Shown in pieces: positions 20,852 to 36,213 of a stretch of DNA of 36,303 nt. The DNA is taken from UHGV virus genome UHGV-1321070, one strand, 5' to 3'. Numbering within the stretch: position 1 is the first letter of the stretch; each line of letters opens with the position of its first letter. A program made the translations under genes and the position numbers. The stretch comes from a virus. The notes under the pieces are model-generated. The model did no database searches, was not told where the DNA came from, and worked only from the letters and a program-made list of their open reading frames with translations.

Positions 20852-20860
20852 GGAGGCGTT

Positions 20861-21199: not shown

Positions 21200-21200
21200 C

Positions 21201-22362: not shown

Positions 22363-23779
22363 CTATCTGCATGGCGTCGAAACCATTGAGGTGGAAAACG
22401 GAGCCCGCCCGGTTAAAACGGTGAAATCTGCCGTTATTGGCCTGATTGGTACCGCCCCGATGGGGGATGTCAATACGCTGGTACAGTGCCTGTCTGAGAA
22501 AGACGCTGCGGCATTTGGCAGCCAGTTCACCGGCTTTACCATTCCGCAGGCGCTGGATGCGATTTATGACCATGGTGCAGGCACCGTTCTGGTCATTAAC
22601 GTACTCGATCCGTCTGTGCATAAAATCGCTGTGGTCAGTGAGAATGTGTCGTTCGACAAGGCGACAGGCAGAGCCCGGCTGGCTAATCCGGTGGTCGCGC
22701 AGCTGGTACTGAAACCGGACAGCGACGGTCAGCCTTATGTTGAAGGTCAGGACTACTCGCTTGATGCACAGACCGGGGTGATTACTAACCTGGGTAAAAG
22801 CATTGCTGCAGATGCAACGGTGAAGGCCAGCTATAACTATGCTGATCCGACCAAAGTCACCCCGGCTGATATCATCGGTACCGTTAACGCTGCAGGCAAC
22901 CGTACCGGCATGAAGCTGCTTAACGACAGTTTTAACCTGTTTGGCTACTTCGCCAAAATCCTGATTGCTCCGGTATTCTGCACCCAGAACAGCGTCTCGG
23001 TTGAGCTTATCGCCATGGCTGAGAAACTGGGAGCAGTAACCTATATTGATGCTCCGGTTGGTACCACTTTTGCGCAGGCTCTGGCGGGACGTGGCCCGGA
23101 AGGCACCATTAACTTTAATACCAGCTCTGACCGTGTCCGCCTGTGCTACCCGCATGTGAAGGTATATGACCCGGTGACGAACACGGAGCGTCTGGAGCCA
23201 CTGAGCCAGCGTGCGGCGGGCCTGCGTGCCAAAGTCGACCTGGACAAAGGGTACTGGTGGTCATCCTCCAATCAGGAAATTCTGGGGATCACCGGCGTGG
23301 AGCGCCAGCTGTCGGCAATGATTGACGATCCGCAGAGCGAGGTGAACCTGCTTAACGAACAGGGGATCACCACGGTATTCAGCAGTTACGGCAGCGGCCT
23401 TCGTCTGTGGGGTAACCGGACGGCAGCATGGCCAACGGTCACCCATATGCGTAACTTTGAGAACGTTCGCCGCACCGGTGATGTGATCAACGAGTCCATT
23501 CGTTACTTCAGCCAGCAGTACATCGACATGCCGATTACTCAGGCGCTGATTGATGCACTGACGGAGTCGGTCAACGCCTACGGTCGCAAAATGACTGGTG
23601 ATGGTGCGGTACTGGGCTTCCGTTGCTGGTTTGATCCGGCCCGCAATCCGGAGACGGAGCTGGCCGCCGGGCACCTGTTGCTGAGCTACAAATATACGCC
23701 ACCACCGCCGCTGGAGCGACTGACGTTTGAGACTGAAATCACCTCGGAATACCTGTTAACCCTGAAAGGGGGCAACTGA
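22352..23779 (+). CDS. Contractile tail sheath protein (Mu L-like)
   Basis: 475 aa, followed directly by tube gene; typical myovirus sheath size and order. Confidence 0.75.
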   Translation: MAANYLHGVETIEVENGARPVKTVKSAVIGLIGTAPMGDVNTLVQCLSEKDAAAFGSQFTGFTIPQALDAIYDHGAGTVLVINVLDPSVHKIAVVSENVSFDKATGRARLANPVVAQLVLKPDSDGQPYVEGQDYSLDAQTGVITNLGKSIAADATVKASYNYADPTKVTPADIIGTVNAAGNRTGMKLLNDSFNLFGYFAKILIAPVFCTQNSVSVELIAMAEKLGAVTYIDAPVGTTFAQALAGRGPEGTINFNTSSDRVRLCYPHVKVYDPVTNTERLEPLSQRAAGLRAKVDLDKGYWWSSSNQEILGITGVERQLSAMIDDPQSEVNLLNEQGITTVFSSYGSGLRLWGNRTAAWPTVTHMRNFENVRRTGDVINESIRYFSQQYIDMPITQALIDALTESVNAYGRKMTGDGAVLGFRCWFDPARNPETELAAGHLLLSYKYTPPPPLERLTFETEITSEYLLTLKGGN

Positions 23780-24300
23780 TGTCAAAGATTGAGATAAACC
23801 GAATCACGAATGCCAACATCTATCTGGATGGTACTAACCTGCTGGGACGGGCTGAGGAAGTTAAACTCCCCGATGTCTCCATGATTATGCAGGAGCACAA
23901 GGCACTGGGGATGGTGGGTAAGGTGGAACTCCCGGCTGGTTTTGACAAACTGGAAGGCGAAATCAAATGGAACAGCTTTTACCGCGATGCGATGTTGTCT
24001 GCCGCGAACCCGTACAAGTCGCTGGCGCTGCAGTGTCGCTCCAGCGTCCAGCGCTACAGCTCGCAGGGGCTGATCGACGAAATCCCGCTGGTCACCTTCC
24101 TGACAATTATGTTCAAGAAGAACCCGCTGGGGACGTTCAAACAGCACGAGAACGCCGAGTTCTCCAGTAGCTTCACCTGCACGTATATCAGACAGGTACT
24201 GGATGGTGAAGAGTTGCTGCAACTGGACTATCTGGCCAACATCTTCCGCGTCGGTGGCGTTGATCAACTGACTGACTATCGAATCAATATCGGGGGCTGA
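23779..24300 (+). CDS. Tail tube protein (Mu M-like)
   Basis: 173 aa immediately after the sheath. Confidence 0.7.
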   Translation: MSKIEINRITNANIYLDGTNLLGRAEEVKLPDVSMIMQEHKALGMVGKVELPAGFDKLEGEIKWNSFYRDAMLSAANPYKSLALQCRSSVQRYSSQGLIDEIPLVTFLTIMFKKNPLGTFKQHENAEFSSSFTCTYIRQVLDGEELLQLDYLANIFRVGGVDQLTDYRINIGG

Positions 24301-24302
24301 CG

Positions 24303-24584
24303 GTGAGTGTTGAACTGACTGACAAAGGAGGGCGATGTGCGTCACTGGGCATGTCAAATGGTACGTGGTTTACCCTCCTTGATATTCCGGGGGTGGAAAC
24401 CCTTTTTAATACCCGTAAAACCAATGACCCGATTGACTGCACACGTTCAAAGGCCCGCAAACTGGCGGATTTGATTGAAGCATGGGAGCCTCCCGACCAC
24501 TGGTTCTCCGGCACCGGCAAATCTGAGGGAAAGACGCTTCTCATCGCTTTCCTGCGTAACTGCAAGGGGTTTCGCACTTGCTGA
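24303..24584 (+). CDS. Hypothetical protein (93 aa, GTG start)
   Basis: ORF between tube and chaperone genes; weak start context, coding status uncertain. Confidence 0.3.
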   Translation: MSVELTDKGGRCASLGMSNGTWFTLLDIPGVETLFNTRKTNDPIDCTRSKARKLADLIEAWEPPDHWFSGTGKSEGKTLLIAFLRNCKGFRTC

Positions 24585-24607
24585 CATCACAGGGGCTCTG
24601 GCCCCTT

Positions 24608-24629
24608 CTTCTTAATCTCCTTTAATATC
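24608..24629 (+). promoter_or_regulatory. Conserved late-promoter motif, copy 2 (upstream of tail chaperone / tape measure operon)
   Basis: CTTCTTAATCTCCTTTAATATC; CATACT -10-like hexamer 19 bp downstream (24649..24654). Confidence 0.55.
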
Positions 24630-24681
24630 CGTCACGCGCTTCTCCCGACATACTGCCCTGAACTTACACAGGAGCACAATC

Positions 24682-25017
24682 ATGTCACAGACCCCATCCG
24701 ATACTTTTAAATTGTCTTATCCCTTCACCACTGCTGCAGGCACCAGAATTGAGCAGGTTGAACTGAAACGCCTGACGGTAAAAGACCTGAAGCAGGTGCG
24801 CAAAATCAGCAAAAACCCGGCAGACTGGGACGAACCGCTGATTGCCCGCAGTACTGGTCTTCTCCCGGAAGATCTCGACAATATGGATCTGGCTGATTAC
24901 CTGCAGTTACAGAAACGATTTCAGCTCATCACGGGGATGGGTGAGAGCAACCAGGGCGCTGACGCAGGCGCAGGGGCTGCTGGCGAGATGGTTCCGGTTT
25001 CAGCCGGGGGAGATTGA
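24682..25017 (+). CDS. Tail assembly chaperone (upstream frame)
   Basis: 111 aa acidic protein between tube and tape measure; overlapped by a +1-frame ORF (24842..25099). Confidence 0.55.
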   Translation: MSQTPSDTFKLSYPFTTAAGTRIEQVELKRLTVKDLKQVRKISKNPADWDEPLIARSTGLLPEDLDNMDLADYLQLQKRFQLITGMGESNQGADAGAGAAGEMVPVSAGGD

Positions 25018-25099
25018 TGCCCTCGATACTGACGATCTGGAGATGTGGCTGGAGCAGGCTGAAGAGCAAATCAAAAGCGAGTACGGCGACAAATCATAG
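24842..25099 (+). other. +1-frame ORF overlapping the chaperone 3' end (candidate frameshift extension)
   Basis: The +1 frame stays open to 25099 while the 0 frame ends at 25017; a run of five G (GCC GGG GGA) sits just before the 0-frame stop. Confidence 0.35.
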
Positions 25100-25104
25100 T
25101 ACAG

Positions 25105-25125
25105 ACAGCCGCCAGTAGCGGCTGT
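25105..25125 (+). other. Stem-loop ACAGCCGC-cagta-GCGGCTGT upstream of the tape-measure gene
   Basis: 8-bp perfect stem with 5-nt loop in the 75-bp gap before 25175; no clear U-tract. Confidence 0.35.
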
Positions 25126-25174
25126 TCTGCGTTATCCCCTCACGTCTTTTCACCTTCCCCGGAGGTTAACCACT

Positions 25175-27865
25175 ATGTCGGGACAGTTTTCAGTCGGCGT
25201 TGTTATCGGCGGGATGATTGGCAGCACATTCCGTTCTGCAATGAGCGGTACCCGCCGTGCGCTTGATTCCCTGAGCGATACCTCACGCCGCCTGCAGGAA
25301 CGTCAGAACGCTTTAACCCGTGCAACAGAACGTTATGGTCAACTGGGTTCTTCCCGGATGCAGCATCTCAACAGCGAGCTGCTGCGGGTAAGCCGCACCA
25401 TGGAGCAAATTGAGCGCCAGCAGCGCCGTCTGTCAGCGGCATCCGCTACCAGTGATGCGCTGAAAGCTAACCGCATGGCGCTGTATGGTCAGGGGATTGA
25501 AGCGTATAGCATGGCACAGACTGTTTATCATACGGTTTCCCCTGCCGTTCAGCAGTCCATGTCTTTTCAGGACAAAATGATTGATATGTCGATCACCGCA
25601 AAATATGACAATAAAACGCGGGATGCACTTGCCGGACAGATAAAAGGCTGGGCGCTTAAATACAATCAGTATCAGGATGAGCTGCAGGAGGCGGTGGGTT
25701 CACTCATCAGCGACAATATTGATAATGTGTCAGATATCGGTTTTCTGATGCCGGATATTGCCCGCGCGGCAACGGCAACACGCACGTCTGCTCAGGACTG
25801 GGCAAAAGTGGCCGCAGTCTGGCAAAACTCCCTGAAAGGTGCGGCCAGAGATTTTGGTGCCGTTCAGAATATTATGGCTTATGCCGGTGACCAGGGGTCA
25901 TTTGAAATCCCGGATCAGGTCAAGTGGATGCAGTCCCTGGCCCCAATGATGGCGGGTATTGCCAGTGGAAAAGAGGCTGTTGCTGAAATCGGGGCCAGTC
26001 TCCAGATAGCAAAAATCGGTGCAGGTTCCACCGACGAGGCAGCCAATAATTTTAAAAACTTTCTTACCAAAATTTTTGCCCGCGATACTCAGAAACAGTT
26101 TGCTGATCTGGGTATTGATTTGCAGGGATCTATTGCGAGTTATAAGGCTGCGGGGATCTCTCCGATTGAAGGGATGTTGAGTGTTATAGAACGTTACCTC
26201 AATGCCAAAAGCCCCGAAGCGCTGGCCGACTTCAAATCCGCCATGAAAATAAAGAATGATACGGCAAGAGATGAGGCACTTCAGGCTCTGGCGAAAAACT
26301 TTGGTCTGGGTGATATGTTCGCGGATATGCAGGTCATGGCATTTATCCGCCCGATGCTGGCCAACATGGACAGATATCGCGAGATCCGCGCCGGTGCTCT
26401 CAGGGCTGCGGATAACGATTTGCTTGCCAGTGCTTATGATCAGCGGCTGAAATCTCCCCTTGAAGCCACTAAAGCACTTATGGTCAGCAGTCACGATCTG
26501 GCAATTACGCTGGGCGATCAATTAGCTCCATCTTTTATTTCTCTGACTCAGGACTTGCTCCCACTCATTCAGGGGACAAAACACTGGGTAGCGACTCACC
26601 CGCAATTTGTCAGTGGGGCTTTTAAGCTCATCAGTGCGCTCCTTGCGATTAAGATAGCGACTATTGGTCTCAAACTGGGGCTGAATCTCCTTATTTCCCC
26701 CTTTGTAAGTGTCTGGAAAAATGCTGTTTTACTTCGGGCCAACTGGCTTCGTCTGTCGCTCGCACTGGGGCAAGGCGGTAAGCTCCGCTGGCTGGTGACC
26801 GGATTTAGCGCCGTCGCCAGAGGAGCCAGAACACTGAGTGGCGTGCTCTCCGGGGGGCTGGTTCGCGGAATTATGCTCGCCGGACGTGCTGTTCTCTGGA
26901 TTGGACGTGCGCTGATGATGAATCCCATCGGTCTCGTTATCACCGCTGTCGCGGCAGCAGCTTACCTTATCTACCGCAACTGGGGGGCAGTCAGTGGCTG
27001 GTTTAAACAGCGCTGGGCTGACATTCAGGAAGCCTTTAACGGCGGCATTGTGGGAATTGGTAAGTTGCTGATTAACTGGTCGCCGGCAGGCCTGCTCTAT
27101 AAAGCCTTTGCGGCTGCGCTGAAATATTTCGGCGTTGCTCTGCCGGCAAAGTTCACCGACTTCGGTGGTCATCTTATCGACGGTCTGATTAACGGTATCA
27201 AAAACAAATGGGAGTCGCTCAAATCCAGTGTAACCGGAATGGGTGACAGCATCAGTGGCTGGTTCAGCGAAAAGCTGGGCATTCATTCGCCGAGCCGCGT
27301 GTTTATGGGCTTTGGTGACAATATCGCGCAGGGGGCCGCCATTGGCCTGCAGCGGACCACTCCGCTTGCAGCTCTGGCCGGGCAGCGAATGGCCAGTGAA
27401 CTGCTCCCCAAAATGCCCGTGAGCATTCAGGGGCCAGAAATACGGGATAACACTTCAGGTGTTCGCTTCAGTATGCCGTTGCCCGATATCAATGGGTTTA
27501 TGTCGTCTGCTAAAAATGCGATCGGAGCCGTAATCAATAGTTTGTCTTCCATGCCCGCTATTCCGCTCTCCACCCGGGCATCGATTTTACCAGGGCAACG
27601 TCTGGCAAATGAGATGACACCGGATGTTCCCCGTATCCCCTCGCCTGAAATCCTGGCTGCCGGATATTCAGGCCGTGGTGCAGCTGCAACCGGCGGTGGA
27701 ACGTCTGGTGGTATCCAGGTCAGCTTTAATCCTCAGTTTTTCCTCAATGGCAGGGAAACCACAGCGCCTGCCGGACTGACTGGCGCCCTGAATATGAGCC
27801 TGCATGAGCTGGAAAAAATGCTGGAGCGTCTGCTGGCTCAGAAACAACGTAAGGAGTACCGCTGA
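25175..27865 (+). CDS. Tail tape measure protein
   Basis: 896 aa, helical N-terminal half and hydrophobic central segments, located after the tail chaperone. Confidence 0.8.
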   Translation: MSGQFSVGVVIGGMIGSTFRSAMSGTRRALDSLSDTSRRLQERQNALTRATERYGQLGSSRMQHLNSELLRVSRTMEQIERQQRRLSAASATSDALKANRMALYGQGIEAYSMAQTVYHTVSPAVQQSMSFQDKMIDMSITAKYDNKTRDALAGQIKGWALKYNQYQDELQEAVGSLISDNIDNVSDIGFLMPDIARAATATRTSAQDWAKVAAVWQNSLKGAARDFGAVQNIMAYAGDQGSFEIPDQVKWMQSLAPMMAGIASGKEAVAEIGASLQIAKIGAGSTDEAANNFKNFLTKIFARDTQKQFADLGIDLQGSIASYKAAGISPIEGMLSVIERYLNAKSPEALADFKSAMKIKNDTARDEALQALAKNFGLGDMFADMQVMAFIRPMLANMDRYREIRAGALRAADNDLLASAYDQRLKSPLEATKALMVSSHDLAITLGDQLAPSFISLTQDLLPLIQGTKHWVATHPQFVSGAFKLISALLAIKIATIGLKLGLNLLISPFVSVWKNAVLLRANWLRLSLALGQGGKLRWLVTGFSAVARGARTLSGVLSGGLVRGIMLAGRAVLWIGRALMMNPIGLVITAVAAAAYLIYRNWGAVSGWFKQRWADIQEAFNGGIVGIGKLLINWSPAGLLYKAFAAALKYFGVALPAKFTDFGGHLIDGLINGIKNKWESLKSSVTGMGDSISGWFSEKLGIHSPSRVFMGFGDNIAQGAAIGLQRTTPLAALAGQRMASELLPKMPVSIQGPEIRDNTSGVRFSMPLPDINGFMSSAKNAIGAVINSLSSMPAIPLSTRASILPGQRLANEMTPDVPRIPSPEILAAGYSGRGAAATGGGTSGGIQVSFNPQFFLNGRETTAPAGLTGALNMSLHELEKMLERLLAQKQRKEYR

Positions 27866-28749
27866 TGTTTGCCGTACTGGGTGATATTGAGTTTGAGCTG
27901 ATTACCTACTGGGACGGCTTCGAGGCCACGTTCGGCGTCGATTATGCGGAGCATGCCCGCATCGGGGGTAAGCCTGGCCTGCAGTTCGTCGGCGACAGGC
28001 TGGACGAAATCCAGATAACTCTGGTTTTCCATCAGCATTATTGTGTACCCGATGTGGAGCTGGCGAGACTGCGAACAGCCATGAAAGCCCATCAGGCACT
28101 GGCGCTGGTCTTCGGCAACGGTGACTATCGTGGCTGGTTCGTGATTACCGATGTGACCGCAACCAGCGAGCAGACAGACAGCACCGGTAACGTGCTGGCT
28201 GTCAGTGCCACCGTGTCTCTCCGGGAATACACCGGTGATCCGAAAAATCCTCTGCAACCACCGGCAATACGCACGAAGCTCCCGGGTGTCGGGGCGGTCT
28301 CCGGTGCCATTCCTTCACCTTCAGGGGTGGCGCAGTTCATCCGCAACGGCGTCAACTATGCGAAACAGGCGCAGTCTGTACTCCAGACCACTATCAGCGC
28401 CGTTCGGGTGACACAGAAAATGAAGGATAACCCCGTTGTCGCACTGACCCGTGTGCCGGGGCTGATGAGCGGACTGGGTAATATCTCCGGGGCTCTGGGG
28501 AAAAGTGTTCCGGCGTTTAACGCACTCTCTGAATCCATGCCCGATGCCATCAGTCTGGCCAGAACAGCCAGCGAAGCAGCCACGTATGTACAGCAGGCAC
28601 AGTCTGCGCTGAGTGGTGTGGACAAAAGAAATATTGCAGGTGCTCTGGATACCGTTTCCGGGCAGCTTAACGCCGCCGGCACAGCATTCAACCGCATGTC
28701 TCCGGGATTAAGTGCAATGGCCGCCAGAATACTGACGAGGAGTGTGTGA
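27865..28749 (+). CDS. Tail protein, P2 gpU / Mu N (DNA circularisation)-like
   Basis: 294 aa; N-terminal region (GDIEFEL ... GKPGLQFVGDRLDEIQITLVF ... GWFVITDVT) resembles the gpU-type fold; position after the tape measure. Confidence 0.55.
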   Translation: MFAVLGDIEFELITYWDGFEATFGVDYAEHARIGGKPGLQFVGDRLDEIQITLVFHQHYCVPDVELARLRTAMKAHQALALVFGNGDYRGWFVITDVTATSEQTDSTGNVLAVSATVSLREYTGDPKNPLQPPAIRTKLPGVGAVSGAIPSPSGVAQFIRNGVNYAKQAQSVLQTTISAVRVTQKMKDNPVVALTRVPGLMSGLGNISGALGKSVPAFNALSESMPDAISLARTASEAATYVQQAQSALSGVDKRNIAGALDTVSGQLNAAGTAFNRMSPGLSAMAARILTRSV

Positions 28750-28961
28750 TGTTTCTTGAACATGTTACCCGTGACGGAGAGCGCTGGGATTCGCTGGCAT
28801 GGCAGTACTACGGTGACCCGCTGGGCTATCCCCGGATTATTGCCGCCAATCCGCACGTGGCCATCACGCCGGTGCTGCCCTCCGGGCTGTTGTTACTGAT
28901 CCCGGTGATTGAGACTGAAGAAGCCCGTACAGAAGAGGATATTGCCCCATGGCTGAGATAA
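28746..28961 (+). CDS. Tail protein X-like (P2 gpX family)
   Basis: 71 aa (GERWDSLAWQYYGDP ... IIAANP) resembling the small LysM-like tail protein X. Confidence 0.5.
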   Translation: MMFLEHVTRDGERWDSLAWQYYGDPLGYPRIIAANPHVAITPVLPSGLLLLIPVIETEEARTEEDIAPWLR

Positions 28962-30103
28962 ACAGCACTGCGCAAGTCACATCAGCGTTAACCGGCGTCA
29001 GCGATGTGCTGACACCGGTGTTCACTCTGTGGTATCTGCAGAAAAACATCACCTCTGATATCGCGCCTTATGTCACCCGTGTGACCTGGAGCGATAACAT
29101 CAAAAATGAGTCCGATACCATTGAGGTGGAGCTGGACGACACCGATGGCCGCTGGCTGGATAAGTGGTATCCGGGCAAGGGTGACACGCTGACGCTGAAA
29201 ATGGGCTATCAGGGCGAGAAGCTGCTGTCCTGCGGTACGTTCTCTATAGACGAGATCGAAGTGAGTTCGCCCGCTTCCGTTGTTTCTATCCGTGGGGTGG
29301 CCACCTCGGTTAATAGTGCTCTGCGGACTAAATCCAGCCGTGGTTTTGAGAACACCACGCTGGCAGCTGTTGCGGGGCGGATTGCCAGAAAGCACCGGCT
29401 GAAACTGGTGGGCAGCATTGAGTCCATCAGAATCGACCGGGTGACCCAGTATGCTGAAACCGACGTGGGTTTTCTGCGCCGGCTGGCCAGCGAGTATGGT
29501 TATGCAGTGAAAGTGGTCAGTGACCAGCTGATTTTTTCTCATCTGGCCACACTGCGCAGTCAGGAGACGGTCAGGCAGTTAAAACCGCAGGATGTGGCCC
29601 GCTTTTCCCTGCGTGACACCATCAACCGGGTCTATAAATCTGCAAAGGTAAAACACCAGAAAAGCAGCAGTAAAAAACTGATCGTCCACGAAGCTGATGG
29701 TGGTACCCGTGAAAGCGACAAAAAGCTCAAAGGTGGTAAGGTTACCAGCGCTGACTCACTTAAAGTTAACAGCCGCGTCAGCGACCCGGACAGTGCCCGG
29801 ATTAAAGCGGATTCAGCACTGGCCAGACATAACGAATACCAGCAGAACGGCTCCCTGACGCTGACGGGAACACCTCAACTGACAGCAGGCAACAAAATTG
29901 AACTGGTGGGTTTTGGGCAGTTATCCGGGCCATGGCTCATAACCACTGCCCGCCATGCGTTTGACCGTAACAGCGGCTACACCACAGAGCTGGAAGTGGC
30001 ACGGGGGCCAGTCACAAGAGGGAAAAAACAAAAAACTCAGAAACTCACGGTTTATCACCCGGATGGCAGTACATCGACGGTGATTAAGGAGAAGAAAAAA
30101 TGA
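28949..30103 (+). CDS. Baseplate hub protein (P2 gpD / Mu P-like)
   Basis: 384 aa; position and size match the gpD-type hub that follows gpU/gpX. Confidence 0.65.
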   Translation: MAEINSTAQVTSALTGVSDVLTPVFTLWYLQKNITSDIAPYVTRVTWSDNIKNESDTIEVELDDTDGRWLDKWYPGKGDTLTLKMGYQGEKLLSCGTFSIDEIEVSSPASVVSIRGVATSVNSALRTKSSRGFENTTLAAVAGRIARKHRLKLVGSIESIRIDRVTQYAETDVGFLRRLASEYGYAVKVVSDQLIFSHLATLRSQETVRQLKPQDVARFSLRDTINRVYKSAKVKHQKSSSKKLIVHEADGGTRESDKKLKGGKVTSADSLKVNSRVSDPDSARIKADSALARHNEYQQNGSLTLTGTPQLTAGNKIELVGFGQLSGPWLITTARHAFDRNSGYTTELEVARGPVTRGKKQKTQKLTVYHPDGSTSTVIKEKKK

Positions 30104-30696
30104 CTGGTGTCACTCGTCAGGTCGGTACGGTCAGTGCCGTTGATGCCGACAGGGTTCAGGCCCGCGTTCGTCTGCCTGAATGCGATAACCTGCGCACAAA
30201 CTGGCTTAACGTGCTGCAGCGCAATACCCAGGATAACAAAGATTACTGGCTCCCTGACGTGGGGGAGCAGGTTGAGGTGCTGCTCGATGCCAACGGCGAG
30301 GATGGTGTTATTCTGGGCGCGGTGTATTCAGACGTCGATAAACCACCGTTCAGTGACAAAAATATCCGGGGAACCCGGTTTGCTGATGGTGCAGAGTACA
30401 GCTACAACCGGAAGACGCACACTCTGACCATCCGGGGCGGCATTGAGCATATTGTCATTGAGTGTGGTGCTGATGTGGTATTGAAAACACAGAAAGCCAC
30501 GATTGACGCACCGGAAACCGAACTTACCGGAGATCTGCGTGTCAGGGGAAAGCTGATTTACGAAGGAGGCATGGCGGGTTCTGGTGGTAAAGGTGTTACC
30601 GCGACCATCCATGGCAATATCGAGATTAAAGGGAATGCCCATGCCACGGGCAGTATGCTGTCTGATGGCGAAAACTCCAGCCACCACTCCCACTGA
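30100..30696 (+). CDS. Baseplate spike protein (P2 gpV-like)
   Basis: 198 aa with the gpV-type N-terminal OB-fold-like region and C-terminal beta-strand spike repeats. Confidence 0.65.
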   Translation: MTGVTRQVGTVSAVDADRVQARVRLPECDNLRTNWLNVLQRNTQDNKDYWLPDVGEQVEVLLDANGEDGVILGAVYSDVDKPPFSDKNIRGTRFADGAEYSYNRKTHTLTIRGGIEHIVIECGADVVLKTQKATIDAPETELTGDLRVRGKLIYEGGMAGSGGKGVTATIHGNIEIKGNAHATGSMLSDGENSSHHSH

Positions 30697-30697
30697 G

Positions 30698-30719
30698 CTT
30701 CTTAAACGCCTTTAATATC
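30698..30719 (+). promoter_or_regulatory. Conserved late-promoter motif, copy 3 (upstream of baseplate/fibre operon)
   Basis: CTTCTTAAACGCCTTTAATATC; AATACT -10-like hexamer 19 bp downstream (30739..30744), the same spacing as copy 2. Confidence 0.55.
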
Positions 30720-30750
30720 AGCGTTCCCGCACGGGGGCAATACTGCCCCC

Positions 30751-31098
30751 ATGAAAACGACCTCAGTATTCTGGCAACCAGCCCTGCAGGCTCCCGGCGA
30801 AATTGTCCGGGGGCTGGATGATATCCGGCAGGCGATTCAAATTATCCTGCGGACTCCCCGCGGCAGCGACCCGCATCGCCCGGAGTTCGGCAGCAATCTG
30901 CATCTTTATATCGACTGGCCTGTAGACCGGGCCATTCCGCATGTGGTGCGCGAATCCGTCGATGCCATCCGGCGCTGGGAGCCCCGCTGCCAGCTTATGT
31001 CAGTTAAACCCGCCGTCGACGGCGAACATCTTACGCTCCGGGTGAGCTGGAAAGGCTCAGACGGACAGACCCGGACTCAGGAACTGCTATGGCGCTGA
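30751..31098 (+). CDS. Baseplate wedge protein (P2 gpW / T4 gp25-like)
   Basis: 115 aa with the GPW/gp25 signature region (IRQAIQIILRTPRGSDPHRPEFGSNLHLYIDWPVD). Confidence 0.7.
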   Translation: MKTTSVFWQPALQAPGEIVRGLDDIRQAIQIILRTPRGSDPHRPEFGSNLHLYIDWPVDRAIPHVVRESVDAIRRWEPRCQLMSVKPAVDGEHLTLRVSWKGSDGQTRTQELLWR

Positions 31099-32192
31099 CA
31101 GAACCCGATTTTATTGAACGCGATGCCGACAAAATCACGGCAGAAATGATTGCGAAGTATGAAGCGGATACCGGCAAAACGCTGTACCCGGCACAGGCAG
31201 AACGTCTGCTGATTGATCTGTGGGCCTATCGCGAAATGCTGGTCAGGGTTGCGGTACAGGAGGCAGCAAAGCAGAATCTGGTCGCCTTTGCCCGTGAGCC
31301 GATGATTGATTACCTCGGTGAACTGGTCGGTGTATACCGTCTTGCCGCGCAGCCTGCCACCACCACGCTCCAGTTCTCCGTAGATGAGGCACTGGCCATT
31401 GATGTGCTGATCCCGGCAGGCACCCGCGTCAGCGCTTCCGACAGCGTTATTTTCGCCACCGATACAGATGTGGTACTGAAGGCCGGATTGCTGCTGGTCA
31501 ATGTCACGTCCACCTGTACCGAACCCGGTACCGCTGGTAACGGCTGGCAACCTGCGCAGGTCAGTCAGTTACTCGATGAGATTGATAACGTCGACCTGCT
31601 GGTGAGCAATCTGACGGCTAGTTCCGGCGGTTCAGAACAGGAAGACGATGACAGGCTCCGGGAGCGTATCAGGCTGGCCCCGGAGTCATTCACCAATGCC
31701 GGAAGCCGTGGCGCATACCGCTTTCATGCCATGCAGGCCCATCCCAACATTGTCGATGTTGCTGTGCTTTCCCCGGTTCCCGGGACCGTAGATCTGTATC
31801 CGCTGCTCAGTACCGGTCTGCCGGACGGCGGTGTTCTCACGCTGGTAGAGAGTTTCTGCTCTGATGAGAAAGTCAGGCCACTCACTGATACAGTGCGGGC
31901 TAAAACACCAGTGAAGGTGGATTACACCATTGAAGCCAGGATTACGATCTATCGTGATCAGGATGCCAGGTCTGTAAAAGATGCCGCTAACAGCGCCATA
32001 CAGAACTGGGTGGCATCACATGCCGCCACGCTGGGGCGTGATATTGTCCCCAGCCAGATTATCAGTGCATTGTCCGTTTCCGGGGTGTACCAGGTTGAAC
32101 TGGTGACACCGGCACTGAGGGTGGTGGCAGAAAACGAATGGGCAAACTGTACGGCGATCACACTTAACATGAGTGGAGTGTCTGATGACTGA
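31089..32192 (+). CDS. Baseplate protein J-like
   Basis: 367 aa following the gp25-like gene; order W-J-I is conserved in P2/Mu-type baseplates. Confidence 0.65.
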   Translation: MALTEPDFIERDADKITAEMIAKYEADTGKTLYPAQAERLLIDLWAYREMLVRVAVQEAAKQNLVAFAREPMIDYLGELVGVYRLAAQPATTTLQFSVDEALAIDVLIPAGTRVSASDSVIFATDTDVVLKAGLLLVNVTSTCTEPGTAGNGWQPAQVSQLLDEIDNVDLLVSNLTASSGGSEQEDDDRLRERIRLAPESFTNAGSRGAYRFHAMQAHPNIVDVAVLSPVPGTVDLYPLLSTGLPDGGVLTLVESFCSDEKVRPLTDTVRAKTPVKVDYTIEARITIYRDQDARSVKDAANSAIQNWVASHAATLGRDIVPSQIISALSVSGVYQVELVTPALRVVAENEWANCTAITLNMSGVSDD

Positions 32193-32763
32193 GCCATTAC
32201 AACTCCCGCCACCGCTTGAGGGTGATATCAGTCTCAGGACGCTGGGAAGACTGGCAGGGCGGCTGGATAACATCGACCTGAGCGTACTGATGGTCTTTCT
32301 CGTCGATATCGTCGACAGTTCTGCGCTGCCATGGCTGGGCGAGCAGTTCTCACTGTCTGGCGATGGCTGGGAGCTGGCGGAATCGGACGATGTTCGCCGC
32401 ATGCTTATAAAAGCAGCCATCGAACTACACCGGTATAAAGGGACGCCGTGGTCAATCCGGGAAGTTATCCGCCGTTTTGGCTTTGGTGAAGTGGATCTGA
32501 TTGAAGGCACAGGTCGTCTCAGTTACGACGGCAATCGCAGCTATAACGGACTGTTTGTTCATGGAGATGCAGCCGCCTGGGCGGTTTATCGCGTTATTCT
32601 GAAACAGCCCATTACTAACGATCAGGCCGCGATGCTGCGTCAGACGCTCGCTGCATTTGCACCGGCCCGCTGCCATCTGGCCAGCCTGGAGTATCAGTCT
32701 GTGGCCATTCGCTATAACAATACCGCCATCCATGATGGCAGTTATAACCACGGGAGCAGTTGA
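32173..32763 (+). CDS. Tail protein I-like (baseplate component)
   Basis: 196 aa, between J-like and tail fibre genes. Confidence 0.55.
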   Translation: MECLMTEPLQLPPPLEGDISLRTLGRLAGRLDNIDLSVLMVFLVDIVDSSALPWLGEQFSLSGDGWELAESDDVRRMLIKAAIELHRYKGTPWSIREVIRRFGFGEVDLIEGTGRLSYDGNRSYNGLFVHGDAAAWAVYRVILKQPITNDQAAMLRQTLAAFAPARCHLASLEYQSVAIRYNNTAIHDGSYNHGSS

Positions 32764-34397
32764 TTATGGGAAACCTGAATGAAACAGAAAAGTGGGAAGA
32801 AAATATCTATCAACTGGAGACATCAGATCCGGTTCTGGGTGGTGCTGACGGGATATCAAATCGAGCCCCCCGGCAACTGGCAAACAGGACGAAATGGCTG
32901 AAGAAAAAAACGGAGGAAGCCGCACAGTCACTGGCTGAACACGTACGTTCCCGTAACCACCCGGACGCGACACTGACAGCTAAGGGGTTCACCCAACTGA
33001 GCAGTGCCACCAACAGCACCTCTGAAACGCTGGCCGCCACACCAAAAGCCGTCAAGGCTGCATACGACCTTGCAGCCGGCAAGGCACCCGTCAGTCACAC
33101 TCACCCGTGGAGTCAGATAACGGGAGTGCCTGCTGCCTCGCTGACGGCAAAAGGCACCGTACAACTGAGCAGTGCCACGGACAGTCAATCAGAAACTGAG
33201 GCTGCCACGCCGAAGGCTGTGAAAATCGCGTATGATCTGGCCCGGGGAAAATACACAGCCCAGGATGCAACAACGACCCGTAAAGGGATCGTACAACTGA
33301 GCAGTGCCACCAACAGCACCTCTGAAACGCTGGCCGCCACACCAAAGGCCGTCAAGGCTGCATATGACCTGGCTGCCGGCAAGGCCCCCGTCAGCCACAC
33401 TCACCCGTGGAGTCAGATAACGGGAGTGCCTGCTGCCTCGCTGACGGCAAAAGGCACCGTACAACTGAGCAGCGCCACGGACAGTCAATCAGAAACTGAG
33501 GCTGCCACGCCGAAGGCGGTCAAGGCTGCATACGACCTTGCAGCCGGCAAGGCGCCCGTCAGCCACACTCACCCGTGGAGTCAGATAACGGGAGTGCCTG
33601 CTGCCTCGCTGACGGCAAAAGGCACCGTACAATTGAGCAGTGCCATCAACAGCACGTCTGAAATACTGGCCGCCACACCGAAAGCGGTCAAGGCTGCATA
33701 CGATCTGGCAAACGGAAAACAACCGGCAGATGCCACGCTCACTGCTCTGGCAGGACTTGCCACTGCAGCAGATCGGTTGCCTTATTTTACCGGAGCAGAC
33801 CGCGCAGCGCTGGCAACCCTTACAGCTATTGGTCGCGCGATTATCGCTAAGGGCAGTATAAAAGATGTCCTCAATTACCTTGGTTTGGGGGAAGGCTCTG
33901 CATTGCCTGTTGGTGTACCGGTTCCATGGCCCACCGCCACACCGCCAGCAGGCTGGTTACAGTGCAACGGAGCTACGTTCACCAAAGAACAATATCCTGT
34001 TCTGGCCAGAGTCTACCCGACCCTCCGTCTTCCCGATTTACGCGGTGAGTTTATCCGTGGATGGGACGACGGGCGCAAAGTTGATACAGGACGTAAGTTG
34101 CTGTCCGCACAAGGGGCAACGCTGTTAAGAACAGCAATGCTGGATTATTATAACCAGGACACTACGGGAACCTCGGGGATAGTCGGCATGGGATTCAACA
34201 ATGAAGATTCCATTACAGACCTTCGTGAGGGCAGCTTTAAAATGCCGGACGGGACAACATTCAGCGATCCTGTCATGGCAATGTCAGACAATGGTATGCA
34301 GGCTACTATTCTGACCTCTATCAGAAGCGGGTATGCGAAGGGTATCACTGTCAGACCCCGTAGCATTGCACTTAATTACATTGTGAGGGCAGTTTAA
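32760..34397 (+). CDS. Tail fibre protein (constant N-terminus, repeat region, invertible C-terminus; current orientation)
   Basis: 545 aa; five copies of the phage-fibre repeat (QLSSATNSTSETLAATPKAVKAAYDLA); the 3' third lies inside the invertible segment, whose left recombination site is at 33868..33893. Confidence 0.8.
   Translation: MIMGNLNETEKWEENIYQLETSDPVLGGADGISNRAPRQLANRTKWLKKKTEEAAQSLAEHVRSRNHPDATLTAKGFTQLSSATNSTSETLAATPKAVKAAYDLAAGKAPVSHTHPWSQITGVPAASLTAKGTVQLSSATDSQSETEAATPKAVKIAYDLARGKYTAQDATTTRKGIVQLSSATNSTSETLAATPKAVKAAYDLAAGKAPVSHTHPWSQITGVPAASLTAKGTVQLSSATDSQSETEAATPKAVKAAYDLAAGKAPVSHTHPWSQITGVPAASLTAKGTVQLSSAINSTSEILAATPKAVKAAYDLANGKQPADATLTALAGLATAADRLPYFTGADRAALATLTAIGRAIIAKGSIKDVLNYLGLGEGSALPVGVPVPWPTATPPAGWLQCNGATFTKEQYPVLARVYPTLRLPDLRGEFIRGWDDGRKVDTGRKLLSAQGATLLRTAMLDYYNQDTTGTSGIVGMGFNNEDSITDLREGSFKMPDGTTFSDPVMAMSDNGMQATILTSIRSGYAKGITVRPRSIALNYIVRAV
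32981..33700 (+). repeat. Tandem direct repeats inside the tail-fibre gene (300-bp unit, about 2.4 copies)
   Basis: Sequence at 33001..33230 recurs nearly base-for-base at 33301..33530 (exact 300-bp offset), with a third partial copy to about 33700. Confidence 0.8.
33868..33893. other. Gin/Hin-type recombination site, left (within fibre gene)
   Basis: On the bottom strand reads TTCCCCCAAACC-AA-GGTAATTGAGGA, comparable to hix/gix sites (for example TTCTTGAAAACC-AA-GGTTTTTGATAA); sits at the outer edge of the 199-bp inverted repeat. Confidence 0.7.
33880..34078. repeat. Inverted repeat, left arm (199 bp, perfect)
   Basis: Reverse complement of 35298..35496 is identical over 199 bp by manual comparison; encodes GEGSALPVGVPVPWPTATPPAGWLQCNGATFTKEQYPVLARVYPTLRLPDLRGEFIRGWDDGRK in both fibre variants. 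Confidence 0.85.
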
Positions 34398-35011
34398 TGA
34401 GTAACACTGCAGTTCTGGATGAAAACGGTATCGCCACTGTAGCGGGCGATATCACTGTATATCACTATGACGAGGAAACCCGGGAATACACCTCATCCTC
34501 TGTGGAGTATCTCGCCCTTGGGGTGGGTACTCCGGCACATTCGTGCGCCGATGCACCGCCGGAGGCAATTTCGGGTTACGTGGTTTGTCGGACTGCCACG
34601 CTGAACGGGTGGGAGCATGTGCCTGATCACCGCGGCGAGACGGTATACAGCACGGAGAACGGTAACCCCGTTCTGATTACCCAACCGGGTGATTACCCGG
34701 CGGACACCACCACAAAACAGCCAGCCACGCCATGGGATACCTGGAACGGTGAGGCGTGGGTAACCGATACTGAACGGCAGCGAGCCGCAGAACTGGAGGT
34801 TGCCAGACAGCAACGCCAGCAACGAGTGAAACAGGCGATGGCGTCCGTCGATCTTATCAACCTCAAACTGCGTGCTGGTCGCAGTCTGACACCAGAAGAA
34901 ACGGCAAAACTGAACGCCGTGCTGGATTATATCGACGAGCTGAACGCACTGGATATCAGCACGGCACCTGAAATCAGCTGGCCGGAAGCGCCACTGGCAC
35001 TTGCCAGTTGA
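34397..35011 (+). CDS. Tail fibre assembly chaperone (Tfa / Mu U-like)
   Basis: 204 aa; start overlaps the fibre stop (TAATG); typical Tfa-like N-terminus (LDENGIATVAGDITVYHYDEETREY); lies inside the invertible segment. Confidence 0.7.
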   Translation: MSNTAVLDENGIATVAGDITVYHYDEETREYTSSSVEYLALGVGTPAHSCADAPPEAISGYVVCRTATLNGWEHVPDHRGETVYSTENGNPVLITQPGDYPADTTTKQPATPWDTWNGEAWVTDTERQRAAELEVARQQRQQRVKQAMASVDLINLKLRAGRSLTPEETAKLNAVLDYIDELNALDISTAPEISWPEAPLALAS

Positions 35012-35017
35012 ACGGTA

Positions 35018-35491
35018 TCACGCCGCCCTCACGATATAGTTAAACGCGATATTGCGGGGGCGGGTTATGTTAAAGAATGCTCCGTTTAATTCGGCTTTTG
35101 CGCGACTGTTTGTTCCACCCAGCATTGCGTACCACAAATAATCGCTACGGTAATTCCCCGCAAACACCTTATCGCCGCCATAGTCAATATTATTTCCGTT
35201 ACTCATGTACGAGATATCAAGCGAAGAATCGTTATCGTCATGACCGCCGACCAGTGTACCTTTCTGCCATGAAAGCAACTTACGCCCCTCGTCAATCTTG
35301 CGCCCGTCGTCCCATCCACGGATAAACTCACCGCGTAAATCGGGAAGACGGAGGGTCGGGTAGACTCTGGCCAGAACAGGATATTGTTCTTTGGTGAACG
35401 TAGCTCCGTTGCACTGTAACCAGCCTGCTGGCGGTGTGGCGGTGGGCCATGGAACCGGTACACCAACAGGCAATGCAGAGCCTTCCCCCAA
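35018..35491 (-). CDS. Alternative tail-fibre C-terminal cassette (promoterless; fused to the fibre gene after inversion)
   Basis: Minus-strand ORF whose first ~65 aa are encoded by the right inverted repeat and are identical to the fibre segment; it then diverges to a different tip ending RPRNIAFNYIVRAA (current tip ends RPRSIALNYIVRAV). Confidence 0.7.
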   Translation of the reverse strand: MGEGSALPVGVPVPWPTATPPAGWLQCNGATFTKEQYPVLARVYPTLRLPDLRGEFIRGWDDGRKIDEGRKLLSWQKGTLVGGHDDNDSSLDISYMSNGNNIDYGGDKVFAGNYRSDYLWYAMLGGTNSRAKAELNGAFFNITRPRNIAFNYIVRAA

Positions 35492-35496
35492 ACCAA
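35298..35496. repeat. Inverted repeat, right arm (199 bp, perfect)
   Basis: Exact reverse complement of 33880..34078. Confidence 0.85.
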
Positions 35497-35508
35497 CGTT
35501 TATCTCTC
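35483..35508. other. Gin/Hin-type recombination site, right
   Basis: TTCCCCCAAACC-AA-CGTTTATCTCTC; the inner half-site and core are shared with the left site, the outer half-site is unique; lies 55 bp upstream of the invertase start. Confidence 0.7.
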
Positions 35509-35562
35509 AAATCCTCCCCACATTATCTCAGTACTTTAACCACTCAAAAGGGAGTATTTTTA

Positions 35563-36135
35563 ATGCTGATTGGCTACATACGTGTGTCAACAAATGACCA
35601 AAACACAGATTTGCAACGCAATGCATTAATGTGCGCAGGATGTGAACAGATTTTTGAGGACAAAATGAGCGGAACCAAGTCGGAACGACCAGGCCTGAAA
35701 CGCGCTTTAAAGTGCCTTAAAAGAGGGGATACATTGGTGGTCTGGAAGCTGGATCGGTTGGGTAGAAGAATGAAACACCTCATTGCTCTCACAGAAGAGC
35801 TACGCGCAAAAGGTGTCAATTTTCGCAGTCTGACGGATTCAATCGATACCAGCACTCCGATGGGAAGGTTCTTTTTTCATATGATGGGTGCACTGGCAGA
35901 AATGGAGCGTGAACTGATAGTTGAGCGCACGCTGGCAGGACTGGCTGCTGCGCGAGCACAAGGGAGAGTTGGAGGACGTCGCCCGAAACTGACGAAGGAG
36001 CAGCATGAGCAGATCGCAAGATTGCTCCAGAAAGGGTATGACAGAAAGCGGCTGGCAATTATCTATGATATTGGACTGTCAACGATCTACCGCTATCACC
36101 CTGTTGGGACTGTCATAACGCAACCTGAAATGTAA
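35563..36135 (+). CDS. Serine DNA invertase of the Gin/Cin/Pin/Hin family
   Basis: Start at the ATG after AAAAGGGAG (track ORF begins 129 nt upstream); MLIGYIRVSTNDQNTDLQRNAL ... VVWKLDRLGR ... SLTDSIDTSTPMGRFFFHMMGALAEMERELIVERT is near-identical to the invertase family, with a C-terminal HTH. Confidence 0.9.
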   Translation: MLIGYIRVSTNDQNTDLQRNALMCAGCEQIFEDKMSGTKSERPGLKRALKCLKRGDTLVVWKLDRLGRRMKHLIALTEELRAKGVNFRSLTDSIDTSTPMGRFFFHMMGALAEMERELIVERTLAGLAAARAQGRVGGRRPKLTKEQHEQIARLLQKGYDRKRLAIIYDIGLSTIYRYHPVGTVITQPEM

Positions 36136-36213
36136 TTCTTTTTCAAATAATGAAACGCCGCGTGGATGCCATTTATCGCACAAGATAGAGTGCATTTATC
36201 GCGCGGCGCATCA
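36136..36213. promoter_or_regulatory. Prophage right terminal region with putative transposase-binding repeats
   Basis: ATGAAACGCCGCG ... CCATTTATCGCA ... GCATTTATCGCGCGGCGCATCA resembles the Mu right end as I recall it (ATTTATCGTGAAACGC ... GCGCCGCTTCA); ends in CA. Confidence 0.65.

What the first reader, a model, noticed from the sequence alone, without database searches (positions are those of the whole stretch)
33868..35508. Gin-type invertible tail-fibre segment with perfect 199-bp inverted repeats and only one chaperone gene
Two hix/gix-like sites flank a 1.6-kb segment whose ends are perfect 199-bp inverted repeats lying inside the fibre coding sequence. Inversion would swap the fibre tip (current tip ends RPRSIALNYIVRAV; alternative ends RPRNIAFNYIVRAA). 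Mu and P1 carry a chaperone for each orientation, but here only one Tfa-like gene (34397..35011) is present, and it would become antisense after inversion. The perfect repeat identity argues the switch is active.
Basis: partly seen in the sequence, partly recalled or inferred. Interest (0 to 1): 0.7.

Follow-up and report, generated by a model that had tools for sequence, protein, structure and literature searches.

The report
Known invertible phage tail-fibre tip switch
This is a DNA-flipping switch in a Mu-like prophage of E. coli that swaps the tip of the phage tail fibre; it is real and active but already described, and having only one helper (chaperone) gene is the usual layout for this type of fibre tip.

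Summary
Two 26-bp hix/gix-like sites (33868-33893, 35483-35508) bound a 1.6-kb segment. Its ends are a perfect 199-bp inverted repeat (229 nt at 96%). The segment holds tip B, one Caudo_TAP chaperone gene (tfa) and a reverse-strand tip C. A Gin-like serine invertase gene (72.6% identical to Mu Gin) follows.

The switch is active in nature. 313 complete E. coli genomes carry the window orientation and 303 carry the flipped one. Sister isolates Esc30 and Esc31 differ only by an exact inversion, with the crossover at the central TT.

The same element family, with an identical invertase protein and matching outer half-sites, was reported as EC958 prophage Phi2 in 2014. Both orientations were seen there in PacBio reads.

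No second chaperone gene exists anywhere in the prophage. This is not peculiar to the window: related arrays with 2, 3, 6 and 10 collar-type tip cassettes all carry exactly one tfa. The tfa-less tip C is under purifying selection (pN/pS 0.19).

How fibres fold when tfa is antisense is unresolved, and I found no discussion of it in the papers I could read.

Verdict: a known system in its minimal two-cassette form, with low-to-moderate interest.

The parts
55..36213 (+). Context: a complete BcepMu-like transposable prophage with TG...CA ends and a 6-bp target-site duplication, GCCAGT.
   Evidence: The right end is shared with L001-L006, and the flanks diverge immediately after ...GCATCA. It encodes an rve transposase, an AAA ATPase and a Mu-type portal. 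The relative PhiKM is classed as Bcepmuvirus.
32766..33879 (+). Constant 5' part of the tail-fibre gene (Sc). It lies outside the invertible segment.
   Evidence: ORF 32760-34397. The ATG start is placed by analogy with the PGAP annotation of L001. It contains five Phage_fiber_2 repeats.
33868..33893 (+). Left 26-bp crossover site, TCCTCAATTACC-TT-GGTTTGGGGGAA.
   Evidence: The outer half-site is the same as the EC958 Phi2 5' site (PMC4134206, Table 3). In Esc30/Esc31 the outer half stays in place and the inner half moves with the cassette.
33877..34105 (.). Left arm of the inverted repeat (perfect core 33880-34078). It encodes the conserved collar part of tip B.
33881..34397 (+). Tip cassette B, currently fused to Sc. 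It is a collar domain with a roughly 105-aa variable insert.
   Evidence: In every relative examined it lies directly upstream of tfa.
34397..35011 (+). The only tail-fibre assembly (Tfa) gene, 204 aa. Its start overlaps the tip B stop codon (TAATG).
   Evidence: Caudo_TAP at E=3.5e-28 and phrog_105 at 3e-88. It is the only Tfa-like sequence in the window.
35018..35495 (-). Silent tip cassette C, which is fused to Sc after inversion. It is a collar domain with a roughly 92-aa variable insert.
   Evidence: It resembles the T4 gp37 tip, 2xgf. Its variable region has pN/pS 0.19 against the L010 homologue.
35271..35499 (.). Right arm of the inverted repeat (perfect core 35298-35496).
35483..35508 (+). 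Right 26-bp crossover site, TTCCCCCAAACC-AA-CGTTTATCTCTC.
   Evidence: It is the reverse complement of the EC958 Phi2 3' site (PMC4134206, Table 3).
35563..36135 (+). Serine DNA invertase gene (Gin/Cin/Pin/Min family), 190 aa. It lies outside the segment.
   Evidence: Resolvase plus HTH_7 domains. E=2e-93 to Mu Gin structures 4m6f and 3uj3, with Ser9 present. 72.6% identical to Mu Gin. 100% identical to the invertase of EC958 Phi2, Esc30 and Esc31.

Best explanation
The locus is the host-range switch of a BcepMu-like transposable prophage.

Shown: the Gin-family serine invertase encoded just to the right (35563-36135) recombines the two inverted 26-bp sites at their central TT/AA dinucleotide. 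This flips the 1.6-kb segment. The constant fibre part Sc is then joined in frame either to tip B (the present state, with tfa co-transcribed downstream) or to tip C (the flipped state, with tfa antisense). Both tips are T4-gp37-like collar domains carrying a variable receptor-binding insert.

The locus is the minimal two-cassette form of a cassette array. Relatives hold 3, 6 or 10 tips, one site per tip, and always a single tfa at the centre of the array.

Inferred: the single Tfa is a generic helper for the whole collar-tip family, not a private partner of tip B. In states where tfa is antisense, I think the fibre most likely receives Tfa activity from somewhere other than the late operon. 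Candidates are related tfa genes of co-resident prophages or plasmids, or weak orientation-independent transcription.

Confidence in the switch itself is about 0.9. Confidence in this chaperone sub-claim is about 0.4.
For: Anatomy:
- Sites, repeats and ORFs are as described.
- The invertase is 72.6% identical to Mu Gin and has the catalytic Ser9.

Activity:
- The window orientation covers at least 80% of a 2-kb query in 313 complete E. coli genomes. The in-silico flipped version does so in 303.
- Esc30 and Esc31 carry the prophage at the same malE site. Their flanks are identical (3181/3181 and 3719/3719), and the 1615 bp between the central dinucleotides is an exact reverse complement.
- In that pair the polymorphic inner half-sites (GGTTTAGGAGAA versus GGTTTGGGGGAA) moved with the cassettes while the outer half-sites stayed. 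This places the crossover at the site core.
- EC958 Phi2 has the same invertase protein and the same outer half-sites. Both orientations were seen in PacBio reads of one culture (PMC4134206).

Flipped product: in-frame fibres carrying tip C are annotated in genomes in the flipped state, for example a 530-aa protein in L002.

Tip C is functional: pN/pS is 0.19 in its variable region against a 77%-identical homologue, with synonymous sites saturated.

Single tfa as the rule: one tfa accompanies 2, 3, 6 and 10 collar cassettes, with one site per cassette.

Tfa looks generic:
- Cassettes next to tfa and cassettes without it form one sequence continuum, 30-49% identical across the two groups.
- The whole length of Tfa, including the N-terminal half, diverges uniformly and does not track the neighbouring cassette. 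The N-terminal part is the fibre-binding, variable domain in Mu Tfa and Pam3 gp25 (PMC9608196).
- A 38%-identical tip in a Klebsiella P2-like phage is followed by a Tfa of the same family.
Against: - No reads from the source strain were available, so inversion in this very copy is inferred from identical or near-identical copies.
- The recombinational enhancer expected in the 5' part of the invertase gene could not be recognised with a simple Fis-consensus search.
- Nothing shows tfa expression in the flipped state. The sigma-70 scan found no promoter-like site in 32600-36303 on either strand, although it also found none upstream of the invertase gene, so it is probably insensitive.
- A 22-nt motif shared by two tail-operon intergenic regions is absent from the segment.
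- Stand-alone collar proteins with no Tfa nearby exist in Yersinia, Photorhabdus and Xenorhabdus. Some collar tips may therefore fold without Tfa, which favours the first rival.
- Mirrored collar arrays with two tfa genes also exist (L021, L063, L076).
Confidence: 0.85

Rival explanations
1. The switch is the same, but tip C (and the other cassettes without tfa) folds without any Tfa. On this reading Tfa serves only its cis-linked tip B, either as a private chaperone or as a retained adhesin-like subunit. The two states would then differ in both the tip and the presence of Tfa on the fibre.
For: - In the two-cassette form, tip C can never be co-oriented with tfa. Yet tip C is under purifying selection, and this form is common in E. 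coli genomes.
- tfa is always translationally coupled to one particular cassette.
- Orphan collar-domain proteins with no Tfa within 8 kb exist in several genera.
- Mu Tfa stays bound to the mature fibre tip (summarised in PMC9608196).
Against: - Cassettes next to tfa and cassettes without it are not separable by sequence. Tip C is 42% identical to tfa-adjacent cassettes in L015 and L019, and tip X is 49% identical to a tfa-adjacent one in L045.
- Tfa does not co-vary with its neighbouring cassette.
- The purifying selection could have acted in arrays of three or more cassettes, where tip C can be expressed while tfa is in sense.
- From established knowledge: T4 gp37-type tips require gp38-type or Tfa-type helpers.
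Confidence: 0.35
2. The flipped state is a non-productive OFF state. Tip C would be a remnant left after loss of its own chaperone gene, so particles made in that state lack working fibres.
For: The canonical Mu layout and some collar arrays have one tfa per orientation. Loss of one copy would produce the layout seen here.
Against: - Tip C is intact in every copy examined and shows pN/pS 0.19.
- The single-tfa layout recurs in arrays of 2 to 10 cassettes, in unrelated phage backbones: a BcepMu-like prophage and P1-like plasmids.
- A switch that yields dead particles half of the time should not be this widespread.
Confidence: 0.08
3. Inversion occurs by RecA-dependent homologous recombination between the 199-229-bp inverted repeats, not by the invertase.
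For: Perfect 199-bp inverted repeats are adequate substrates for homologous recombination. The homogenised repeat suggests that homologous exchange does occur between the arms.
Against: - In Esc30/Esc31 the crossover lies within the few bases around the central TT. SNPs 6 and 8 nt inside the site moved, while the outer half-site did not. A homologous crossover would fall anywhere in about 200 bp.
- Three-site arrays show the same pattern at every site.
- An intact Gin-like invertase and canonical sites are present.
Confidence: 0.04

Closest known systems
EC958 prophage Phi2 tail-fibre allele switch (Forde et al. 2014, PLoS One, PMC4134206)
   Same: It is the same prophage family. The invertase protein is identical (WP_000904922.1). 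The outer half-sites are the same, the inverted repeat is about 227 bp, and tip B and the Tfa are the same (99-100% identical). Both orientations were seen in PacBio reads of one culture.
   Different: Phi2 has a 2067-bp segment with three cassettes (B, Y, X) and three sites. The window has two cassettes (B, C) in 1641 bp. The paper describes the alternates generically as a mirror image with a 'cognate minor tail fibre gene' and does not note that Phi2 has a single tfa.
Phage Mu G segment / Gin
   Same: An invertase 72.6% identical to Gin lies just right of the segment, which is bounded by 26-bp inverted sites. A constant Sc is fused to alternative Sv parts, and the element sits at the right end of a transposable phage.
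   Different: The Mu G segment is 3 kb with 34-bp repeats and the mirrored layout Sv-U / U'-S'v, giving one chaperone per orientation. The window's tips matched T4 gp37 and gp12 structures, and neither the alternative tip nor the Tfa hit the Mu fibre-Tfa structure by sequence. The window has one tfa, and the phage backbone is BcepMu-like with its early genes inverted.
Min multiple-inversion system of plasmid p15B and P1-like phage-plasmids (Sandmeier et al. 1990, 1992; recalled from memory, papers not readable here)
   Same: These arrays use the same kind of collar-type tip cassettes, each headed by a crossover site, with a Gin-family invertase. A P1-like plasmid, L015, carries 10 collar cassettes and a single tfa of the same family. 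Another, L016, carries the very same tip C and an identical Tfa protein, and its record ends before the rest of the array.
   Different: The window has only two sites and two cassettes, so it has two states instead of many permutations. It also sits in a transposable prophage, not a P1-like plasmid. Whether the original p15B papers discussed the single chaperone could not be checked.
P1 C segment / Cin and e14 P segment / Pin
   Same: They use the same recombinase family and the same logic of swapping the fibre 3' end (established knowledge).
   Different: From my own knowledge, both have a tfa (U or tfa) gene for each orientation. This was not tested here.
FRphi tail-fibre 'shufflon' of an Enterobacter temperate phage (Nat Microbiol 2026, PMC13418256)
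   Same: It is a gin-dependent array giving three alternative fibre C-termini. The isoforms were quantified by long reads, and phase-locked strains showed isoform-specific infectivity.
   Different: It is a different phage and host. I did not compare the sequences, and the paper does not mention a chaperone.
T4 gp37 tip with gp38, and lambda Tfa
   Same: The tips match the gp37 collar and C-terminal strand (2xgf, E=2.5e-15...NIAFNYIVR). The helper belongs to the Caudo_TAP family named after lambda gpK/Tfa.
   Different: The variable insert is much shorter and lacks the long His-rich needle. There is no DNA inversion in T4.

Membership tests
Gin/Cin/Pin/Min (Din) invertible tail-fibre segments | A serine recombinase of the DNA-invertase subfamily (resolvase catalytic domain with an active-site Ser near position 9, plus a C-terminal HTH), encoded next to the segment. 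| tested here: met
   PF00239 at E=8e-51 and PF02796. E=2e-93 to Gin structures, with the RVSTNDQ motif conserved. 72.6% identical to Mu Gin.
Gin/Cin/Pin/Min (Din) invertible tail-fibre segments | Two 26-bp crossover sites in inverted orientation, each made of 12-bp half-sites around an identical 2-bp core. | tested here: met
   Sites at 33868-33893 and 35483-35508, with core TT/AA. The half-site TTCCCCCAAACC fits the published consensus quoted in PMC4134206, Table 3.
Gin/Cin/Pin/Min (Din) invertible tail-fibre segments | A recombinational enhancer with Fis sites in cis, usually inside the 5' part of the invertase gene. | tested here: inconclusive
   A simple Fis-consensus regex found no convincing pair of sites in either the window or Mu. 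The first 300 nt of the gene are 60-83% identical to Mu gin in 30-nt windows.
Gin/Cin/Pin/Min (Din) invertible tail-fibre segments | Both orientations occur in vivo, with strand exchange at the site core. | tested here: met
   313 versus 303 complete E. coli genomes. An exact inversion separates Esc30 and Esc31, and the half-sites were exchanged. PacBio evidence exists for EC958 Phi2 (PMC4134206). This was not tested on reads from the window's own strain.
Gin/Cin/Pin/Min (Din) invertible tail-fibre segments | Inversion joins a constant fibre 5' part in frame to alternative 3' parts. | tested here: met
   The in-silico flip gives a 532-aa ORF. The corresponding full-length proteins are annotated in flipped genomes.
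Mu/P1/e14-type mirrored layout (Sv-U / U'-S'v) | One tail-fibre assembly gene for each orientation. | tested here: not met
   The window has a single Tfa. Mu has both U and U'.
Min-type multiple-inversion cassette array | Three or more crossover sites giving overlapping invertible segments. | tested here: not met
   The window has only two sites. Close relatives have 3 sites, and others carry 6 or 10 cassettes. The window is the minimal form.
Min-type multiple-inversion cassette array | Collar-domain tip cassettes that share a conserved 5' part (the repeat), with a single central tfa. | tested here: met
Caudo_TAP tail-fibre assembly proteins (lambda Tfa, Mu U, P2 G) | Sequence membership, and a position immediately downstream of a fibre tip. 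| tested here: met
   PF02413 at 98.8 bits against a cutoff of 22.1. phrog_105. The start codon overlaps the tip B stop. Chaperone activity itself cannot be tested with these tools.

The most novel reading that the evidence does not exclude
In collar-type cassette arrays a single Tfa gene flips with every inversion and is antisense in half of all states. It would then either serve up to ten interchangeable tips or be dispensable for them. This would imply one of two undescribed things: an orientation-independent way of supplying the chaperone (its own promoter, or supply in trans from other prophages), or a class of gp37-like tips that trimerise without a dedicated chaperone. In the second case the switch would toggle both the tip and the presence of a Tfa subunit on the fibre.
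Probability: 0.3. Interest if true: 0.5.

Novelty: already known. Interest (0 to 1): 0.27.

Why it matters
Tail-fibre inversion switches set the host range of temperate phages and phage-plasmids. They are also being used as tools and in engineering phage host range. This family is very common: at least 600 of 5,426 complete E. coli genomes carry it, including ST131 strains.

The practical value here has three parts. The annotation is clarified: silent cassettes are not separate 'phage tail proteins', and assemblies freeze an arbitrary state. The two-cassette form is linked to the multi-cassette arrays. And a simple question is now defined and testable: is the single Tfa needed by all cassettes, and if so, how is it supplied when antisense? 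The answer would matter to anyone swapping such tips into engineered phages or tailocins.

Tried and rejected
- **Promoter for tfa.** The sigma-70 and terminator scan of 32600-36303 found no promoter-like site on either strand. It also found none upstream of the invertase gene, so this negative result is weak.
- **Phage-specific late-promoter motif.** I found a 22-nt motif at 24608 and 30698. It is absent from the segment.
- **Fis/enhancer search by regex.** This was uninformative.
- **Word-indexed protein search with the tip C variable part.** It returned only the same element from E. coli and S. Typhi, so it gave no independent non-invertible context.
- **tblastn of tip C against phage records.** It gave only 14 records. 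The Klebsiella hit was still useful.
- **Same-site test at ascB.** This failed because only one genome has that insertion. The test was replaced by the Esc30/Esc31 pair.
- **Original p15B Min papers.** PMID 1534556 / PMC206102 and PMC53420 are not held. Statements about p15B therefore rest on memory plus the P1-like plasmids examined here.
- **Literature on a single shared chaperone.** I found nothing explicit in the searchable library.
- **Structure prediction.** I did not use it. Monomer models of an intertwined trimeric tip, or of Tfa alone, would not address chaperone dependence, and complexes cannot be submitted.
- **Rejected idea: a hidden second chaperone.** I considered the antisense strand of tfa and sites elsewhere in the prophage. 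There was no hit.
Full report
**1. The observation**

The repeat finder reports inverted arms at 33877-34105 and 35271-35499, 229 nt long and 96% complementary. A base-by-base comparison gives a perfect core of 199 nt, 33880-34078 paired with 35298-35496.

The left site is TCCTCAATTACC-TT-GGTTTGGGGGAA (33868-33893). The right site is TTCCCCCAAACC-AA-CGTTTATCTCTC (35483-35508). They are inverted relative to each other and share the same central dinucleotide. The right site is unique in the window, against 0.00 expected by chance.

- The fibre gene ends at 34397 with ...RPRSIALNYIVRAV.
- A 204-aa gene at 34397-35011 has a start that overlaps the fibre stop.
- Six bases later comes the stop codon of a reverse-strand 157-aa ORF (35018-35491), which ends ...RPRNIAFNYIVRAA.
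- A recombinase gene lies at 35563-36135.

Pfam and PHROGs assign these as follows. The fibre has five Phage_fiber_2 repeats and a Collar domain. The middle gene is Caudo_TAP (E=3.5e-28; phrog_105). The reverse ORF has a Collar domain. The last gene has Resolvase and HTH_7 domains (phrog_125, DNA invertase).

Inverting the segment in silico joins the constant part in frame to the reverse tip and gives a 532-aa ORF.

**2. Context**

The window is essentially one prophage, spanning 55-36213. It has TG...CA ends and a 6-bp target duplication, GCCAGT. It encodes an rve-type transposase, an AAA ATPase and a Mu-type portal. Its baseplate genes are P2/Mu-like. A close relative, phage PhiKM, is classified as Bcepmuvirus.

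In other E. coli genomes the same right end abuts ascB, idi, irp2, malE, the aroA region and many other genes. The phage therefore transposes. The invertase gene is the last gene before the right end, as gin nearly is in Mu.

**3. Is the switch active?**

A 2-kb query in the window orientation is covered to at least 80% in 313 of 5,426 complete E. coli genomes. The in-silico flipped query is covered in 303.

Two sister isolates, Esc30 and Esc31, carry the prophage at the same malE position. Their left and right flanks are identical (3181/3181 and 3719/3719). The 1615 bp between the central dinucleotides of two sites is an exact reverse complement. In this pair the polymorphic inner half-sites (GGTTTAGGAGAA versus GGTTTGGGGGAA) moved with the cassettes while the outer half-sites stayed in place. 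This puts the crossover at the site core. It is what a serine invertase does, and it is not what homologous recombination across a 200-bp repeat would give.

The invertase is 72.6% identical to Mu Gin, has Ser9, and matches the Gin crystal structures at E=2e-93. Its protein sequence is identical to that in Esc30, Esc31 and EC958.

**4. It has been described**

Forde et al. 2014 (PMC4134206) reported that PacBio assembly of E. coli EC958 produced alternative contigs for three prophage tail-fibre regions. For prophage Phi2 they list the crossover sites TCCTCAATTACCTT-GGTTTAGGAGAA and GAGAGATAAACGTT-GGTTTGGGGGAA, a 227-bp inverted repeat at 96%, and a 2067-bp invertible segment.

These are the window's outer half-sites. 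The EC958 locus has the same invertase protein, the same tip B and a 99% identical Tfa. The switch family is therefore published, with direct evidence of inversion within one culture.

The paper describes the alternative alleles generically as a mirror image with a 'cognate minor tail fibre gene'. That does not hold for Phi2, which has three tips and one tfa.

**5. The single chaperone**

There is no second Tfa. tblastn of the whole window with two different Tfa types finds only 34397-35011. The antisense and alternative-frame ORFs in the segment match no PHROG family at E<=1.

This is not special to the window. Every relative examined has exactly one tfa:

| Cassettes | Loci |
|---|---|
| 2 | Window, L001, L002 |
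| 3 | L003, EC958 Phi2, Esc30, Esc31; three sites |
| 6 | One E. coli assembly; other isolates show different permutations |
| 10 | P1-like plasmid L015 |

A second P1-like plasmid, L016, carries the same tip C fused to its fibre and an identical Tfa protein; its record ends before the rest of the array.

In every array tfa sits at the centre, between convergent cassettes, and is fused to one particular cassette. Every inversion recombines a left site with a right site, so every inversion flips tfa. This follows directly from the anatomy.

Mu, by contrast, has both U and U'. A Klebsiella P2-like phage has a collar tip with a Tfa of this family, plus a non-collar alternative tip with its own different Tfa. 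A survey of 80 loci from other species found all of these layouts:
- Mirrored collar arrays with two tfa genes (L021, L063, L076).
- Two-collar arrays with one tfa (L019, L048).
- Ordinary collar-tfa pairs.
- Stand-alone collar proteins with no Tfa nearby.

**6. Is the tfa-less tip functional, and does it need Tfa?**

Tip C has a 77%-identical homologue in the six-cassette array. In the variable region there are 47 synonymous differences against 32 non-synonymous ones. pS is 0.755 (saturated), pN is 0.145, and pN/pS is 0.19. Tip C has therefore been maintained as a protein.

All tips resemble the T4 gp37 tip: a collar, a variable insert, and a C-terminal ...NIAFNYIVR strand that returns to the collar. 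Cassettes next to tfa and cassettes without it form one sequence continuum, 30-49% identical across the two groups.

Tfa diverges evenly along its length and does not follow the type of its neighbouring cassette. In Mu Tfa and Pam3 gp25 the N-terminal domain is the variable, fibre-binding part (PMC9608196). Together these points suggest a generic helper for collar tips, not a private partner of tip B. This is an inference.

I found no evidence for how Tfa would be made when antisense. The scan found no sigma-70-like site, although it is insensitive. A 22-nt motif shared by two tail-operon intergenic regions is absent from the segment.

My estimates for the unresolved step are:
- About 0.4 that Tfa is generic and supplied by another route.
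- About 0.35 that the tfa-less tips fold without it.
- About 0.08 that the flipped state is non-productive.

**7. The perfect repeat**

In L001 the repeat is 194/220 with a longest perfect run of 95. In EC958 it is 96%. Only the window and L002 have the 199-nt perfect run. In the window the constant part of tip B carries the tip-C version (WLQCNGATFT instead of WLKCDGRAFT), which suggests gene conversion between the arms. The repeat exists because both tips encode the same collar domain. Its perfection is not evidence of invertase activity.

**8. Verdict**

The finding is a correctly recognised, active Gin-family tail-fibre switch. It is the minimal two-cassette form of a cassette array that is widespread in E. 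coli prophages and P1-like plasmids. The same prophage family's switch was published in 2014.

The single chaperone is real, but it is the norm for this cassette class. The open point worth an experiment is how collar tips are folded when the only tfa is antisense. I could not find that discussed in the literature available to me, and the original p15B papers could not be read.

Noticed in passing
window 55-36213 (ends), 49-54 and 36214-36219 (GCCAGT): The window is a complete BcepMu-like transposable prophage with TG...CA ends and a 6-bp target-site duplication. The same right end abuts a different host gene in almost every E. coli genome examined (ascB, idi, irp2, malE, yehY, upaG and others).
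   Followed up: partly
window 24608-24629 and 30698-30719 (+): A 22-nt motif, CTTCTTAAnCnCCTTTAATATC, occurs in two intergenic gaps of the tail operon, against 0.01 expected by chance. Each copy lies next to a GC-rich hairpin. It may be a late promoter or a processing signal. It is absent from the invertible segment.
   Followed up: partly
window 32960-33709: There are three long direct repeats (282 nt, 79-89% identical) inside the constant fibre part, corresponding to the Phage_fiber_2 repeats. Relatives have fibres of different lengths (530-664 aa), which suggests expansion and contraction of the repeats.
   Followed up: no
L016 (NZ_CP032875.1, P1-like plasmid) 3630-6098: The same tip C, fused to this plasmid's own fibre, and a Tfa protein identical to the window's (WP_000072166.1) sit in a P1-like phage-plasmid. 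The tip and chaperone appear to be exchanged between phage-plasmids and transposable prophages.
   Followed up: partly
L010 (GCA_016103345.1) 4915-9641; L011-L013: This is a six-cassette array with one tfa. Short contigs from other assemblies show different cassette orders, which indicates active shuffling. Assemblies often break at the repeats.
   Followed up: partly
L015 (NZ_CP141766.1, p1-HYM1) 7001-12971: This P1-like plasmid array has ten collar cassettes (three forward, seven reverse), one tfa and a Gin-family invertase.
   Followed up: partly
L005 (phage PhiKM, PQ738613.1) about 4309-4466: The deposited 'partial genome' has its fibre ORF truncated inside the inverted repeat and then jumps to early genes. 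This is probably an assembly break caused by mixed orientations in the sequenced DNA.
   Followed up: no
L014 (LT904852.1) 5252-9223: This related array is degenerate. Cassettes are fused or frameshifted, and the Tfa has an altered C-terminus. The switch appears to be decaying. The closest named tip homologues (P0009, P0014) are from S. Typhi.
   Followed up: no
L037, L039, L042, L054, L055, L058, L072, L084 (around position 8001 in each): Yersinia, Photorhabdus and Xenorhabdus carry stand-alone collar-domain proteins of 170-330 aa that end ...RPRNIAFNYIVRAA. They sit in non-phage neighbourhoods with no Tfa gene within 8 kb.
   Followed up: partly
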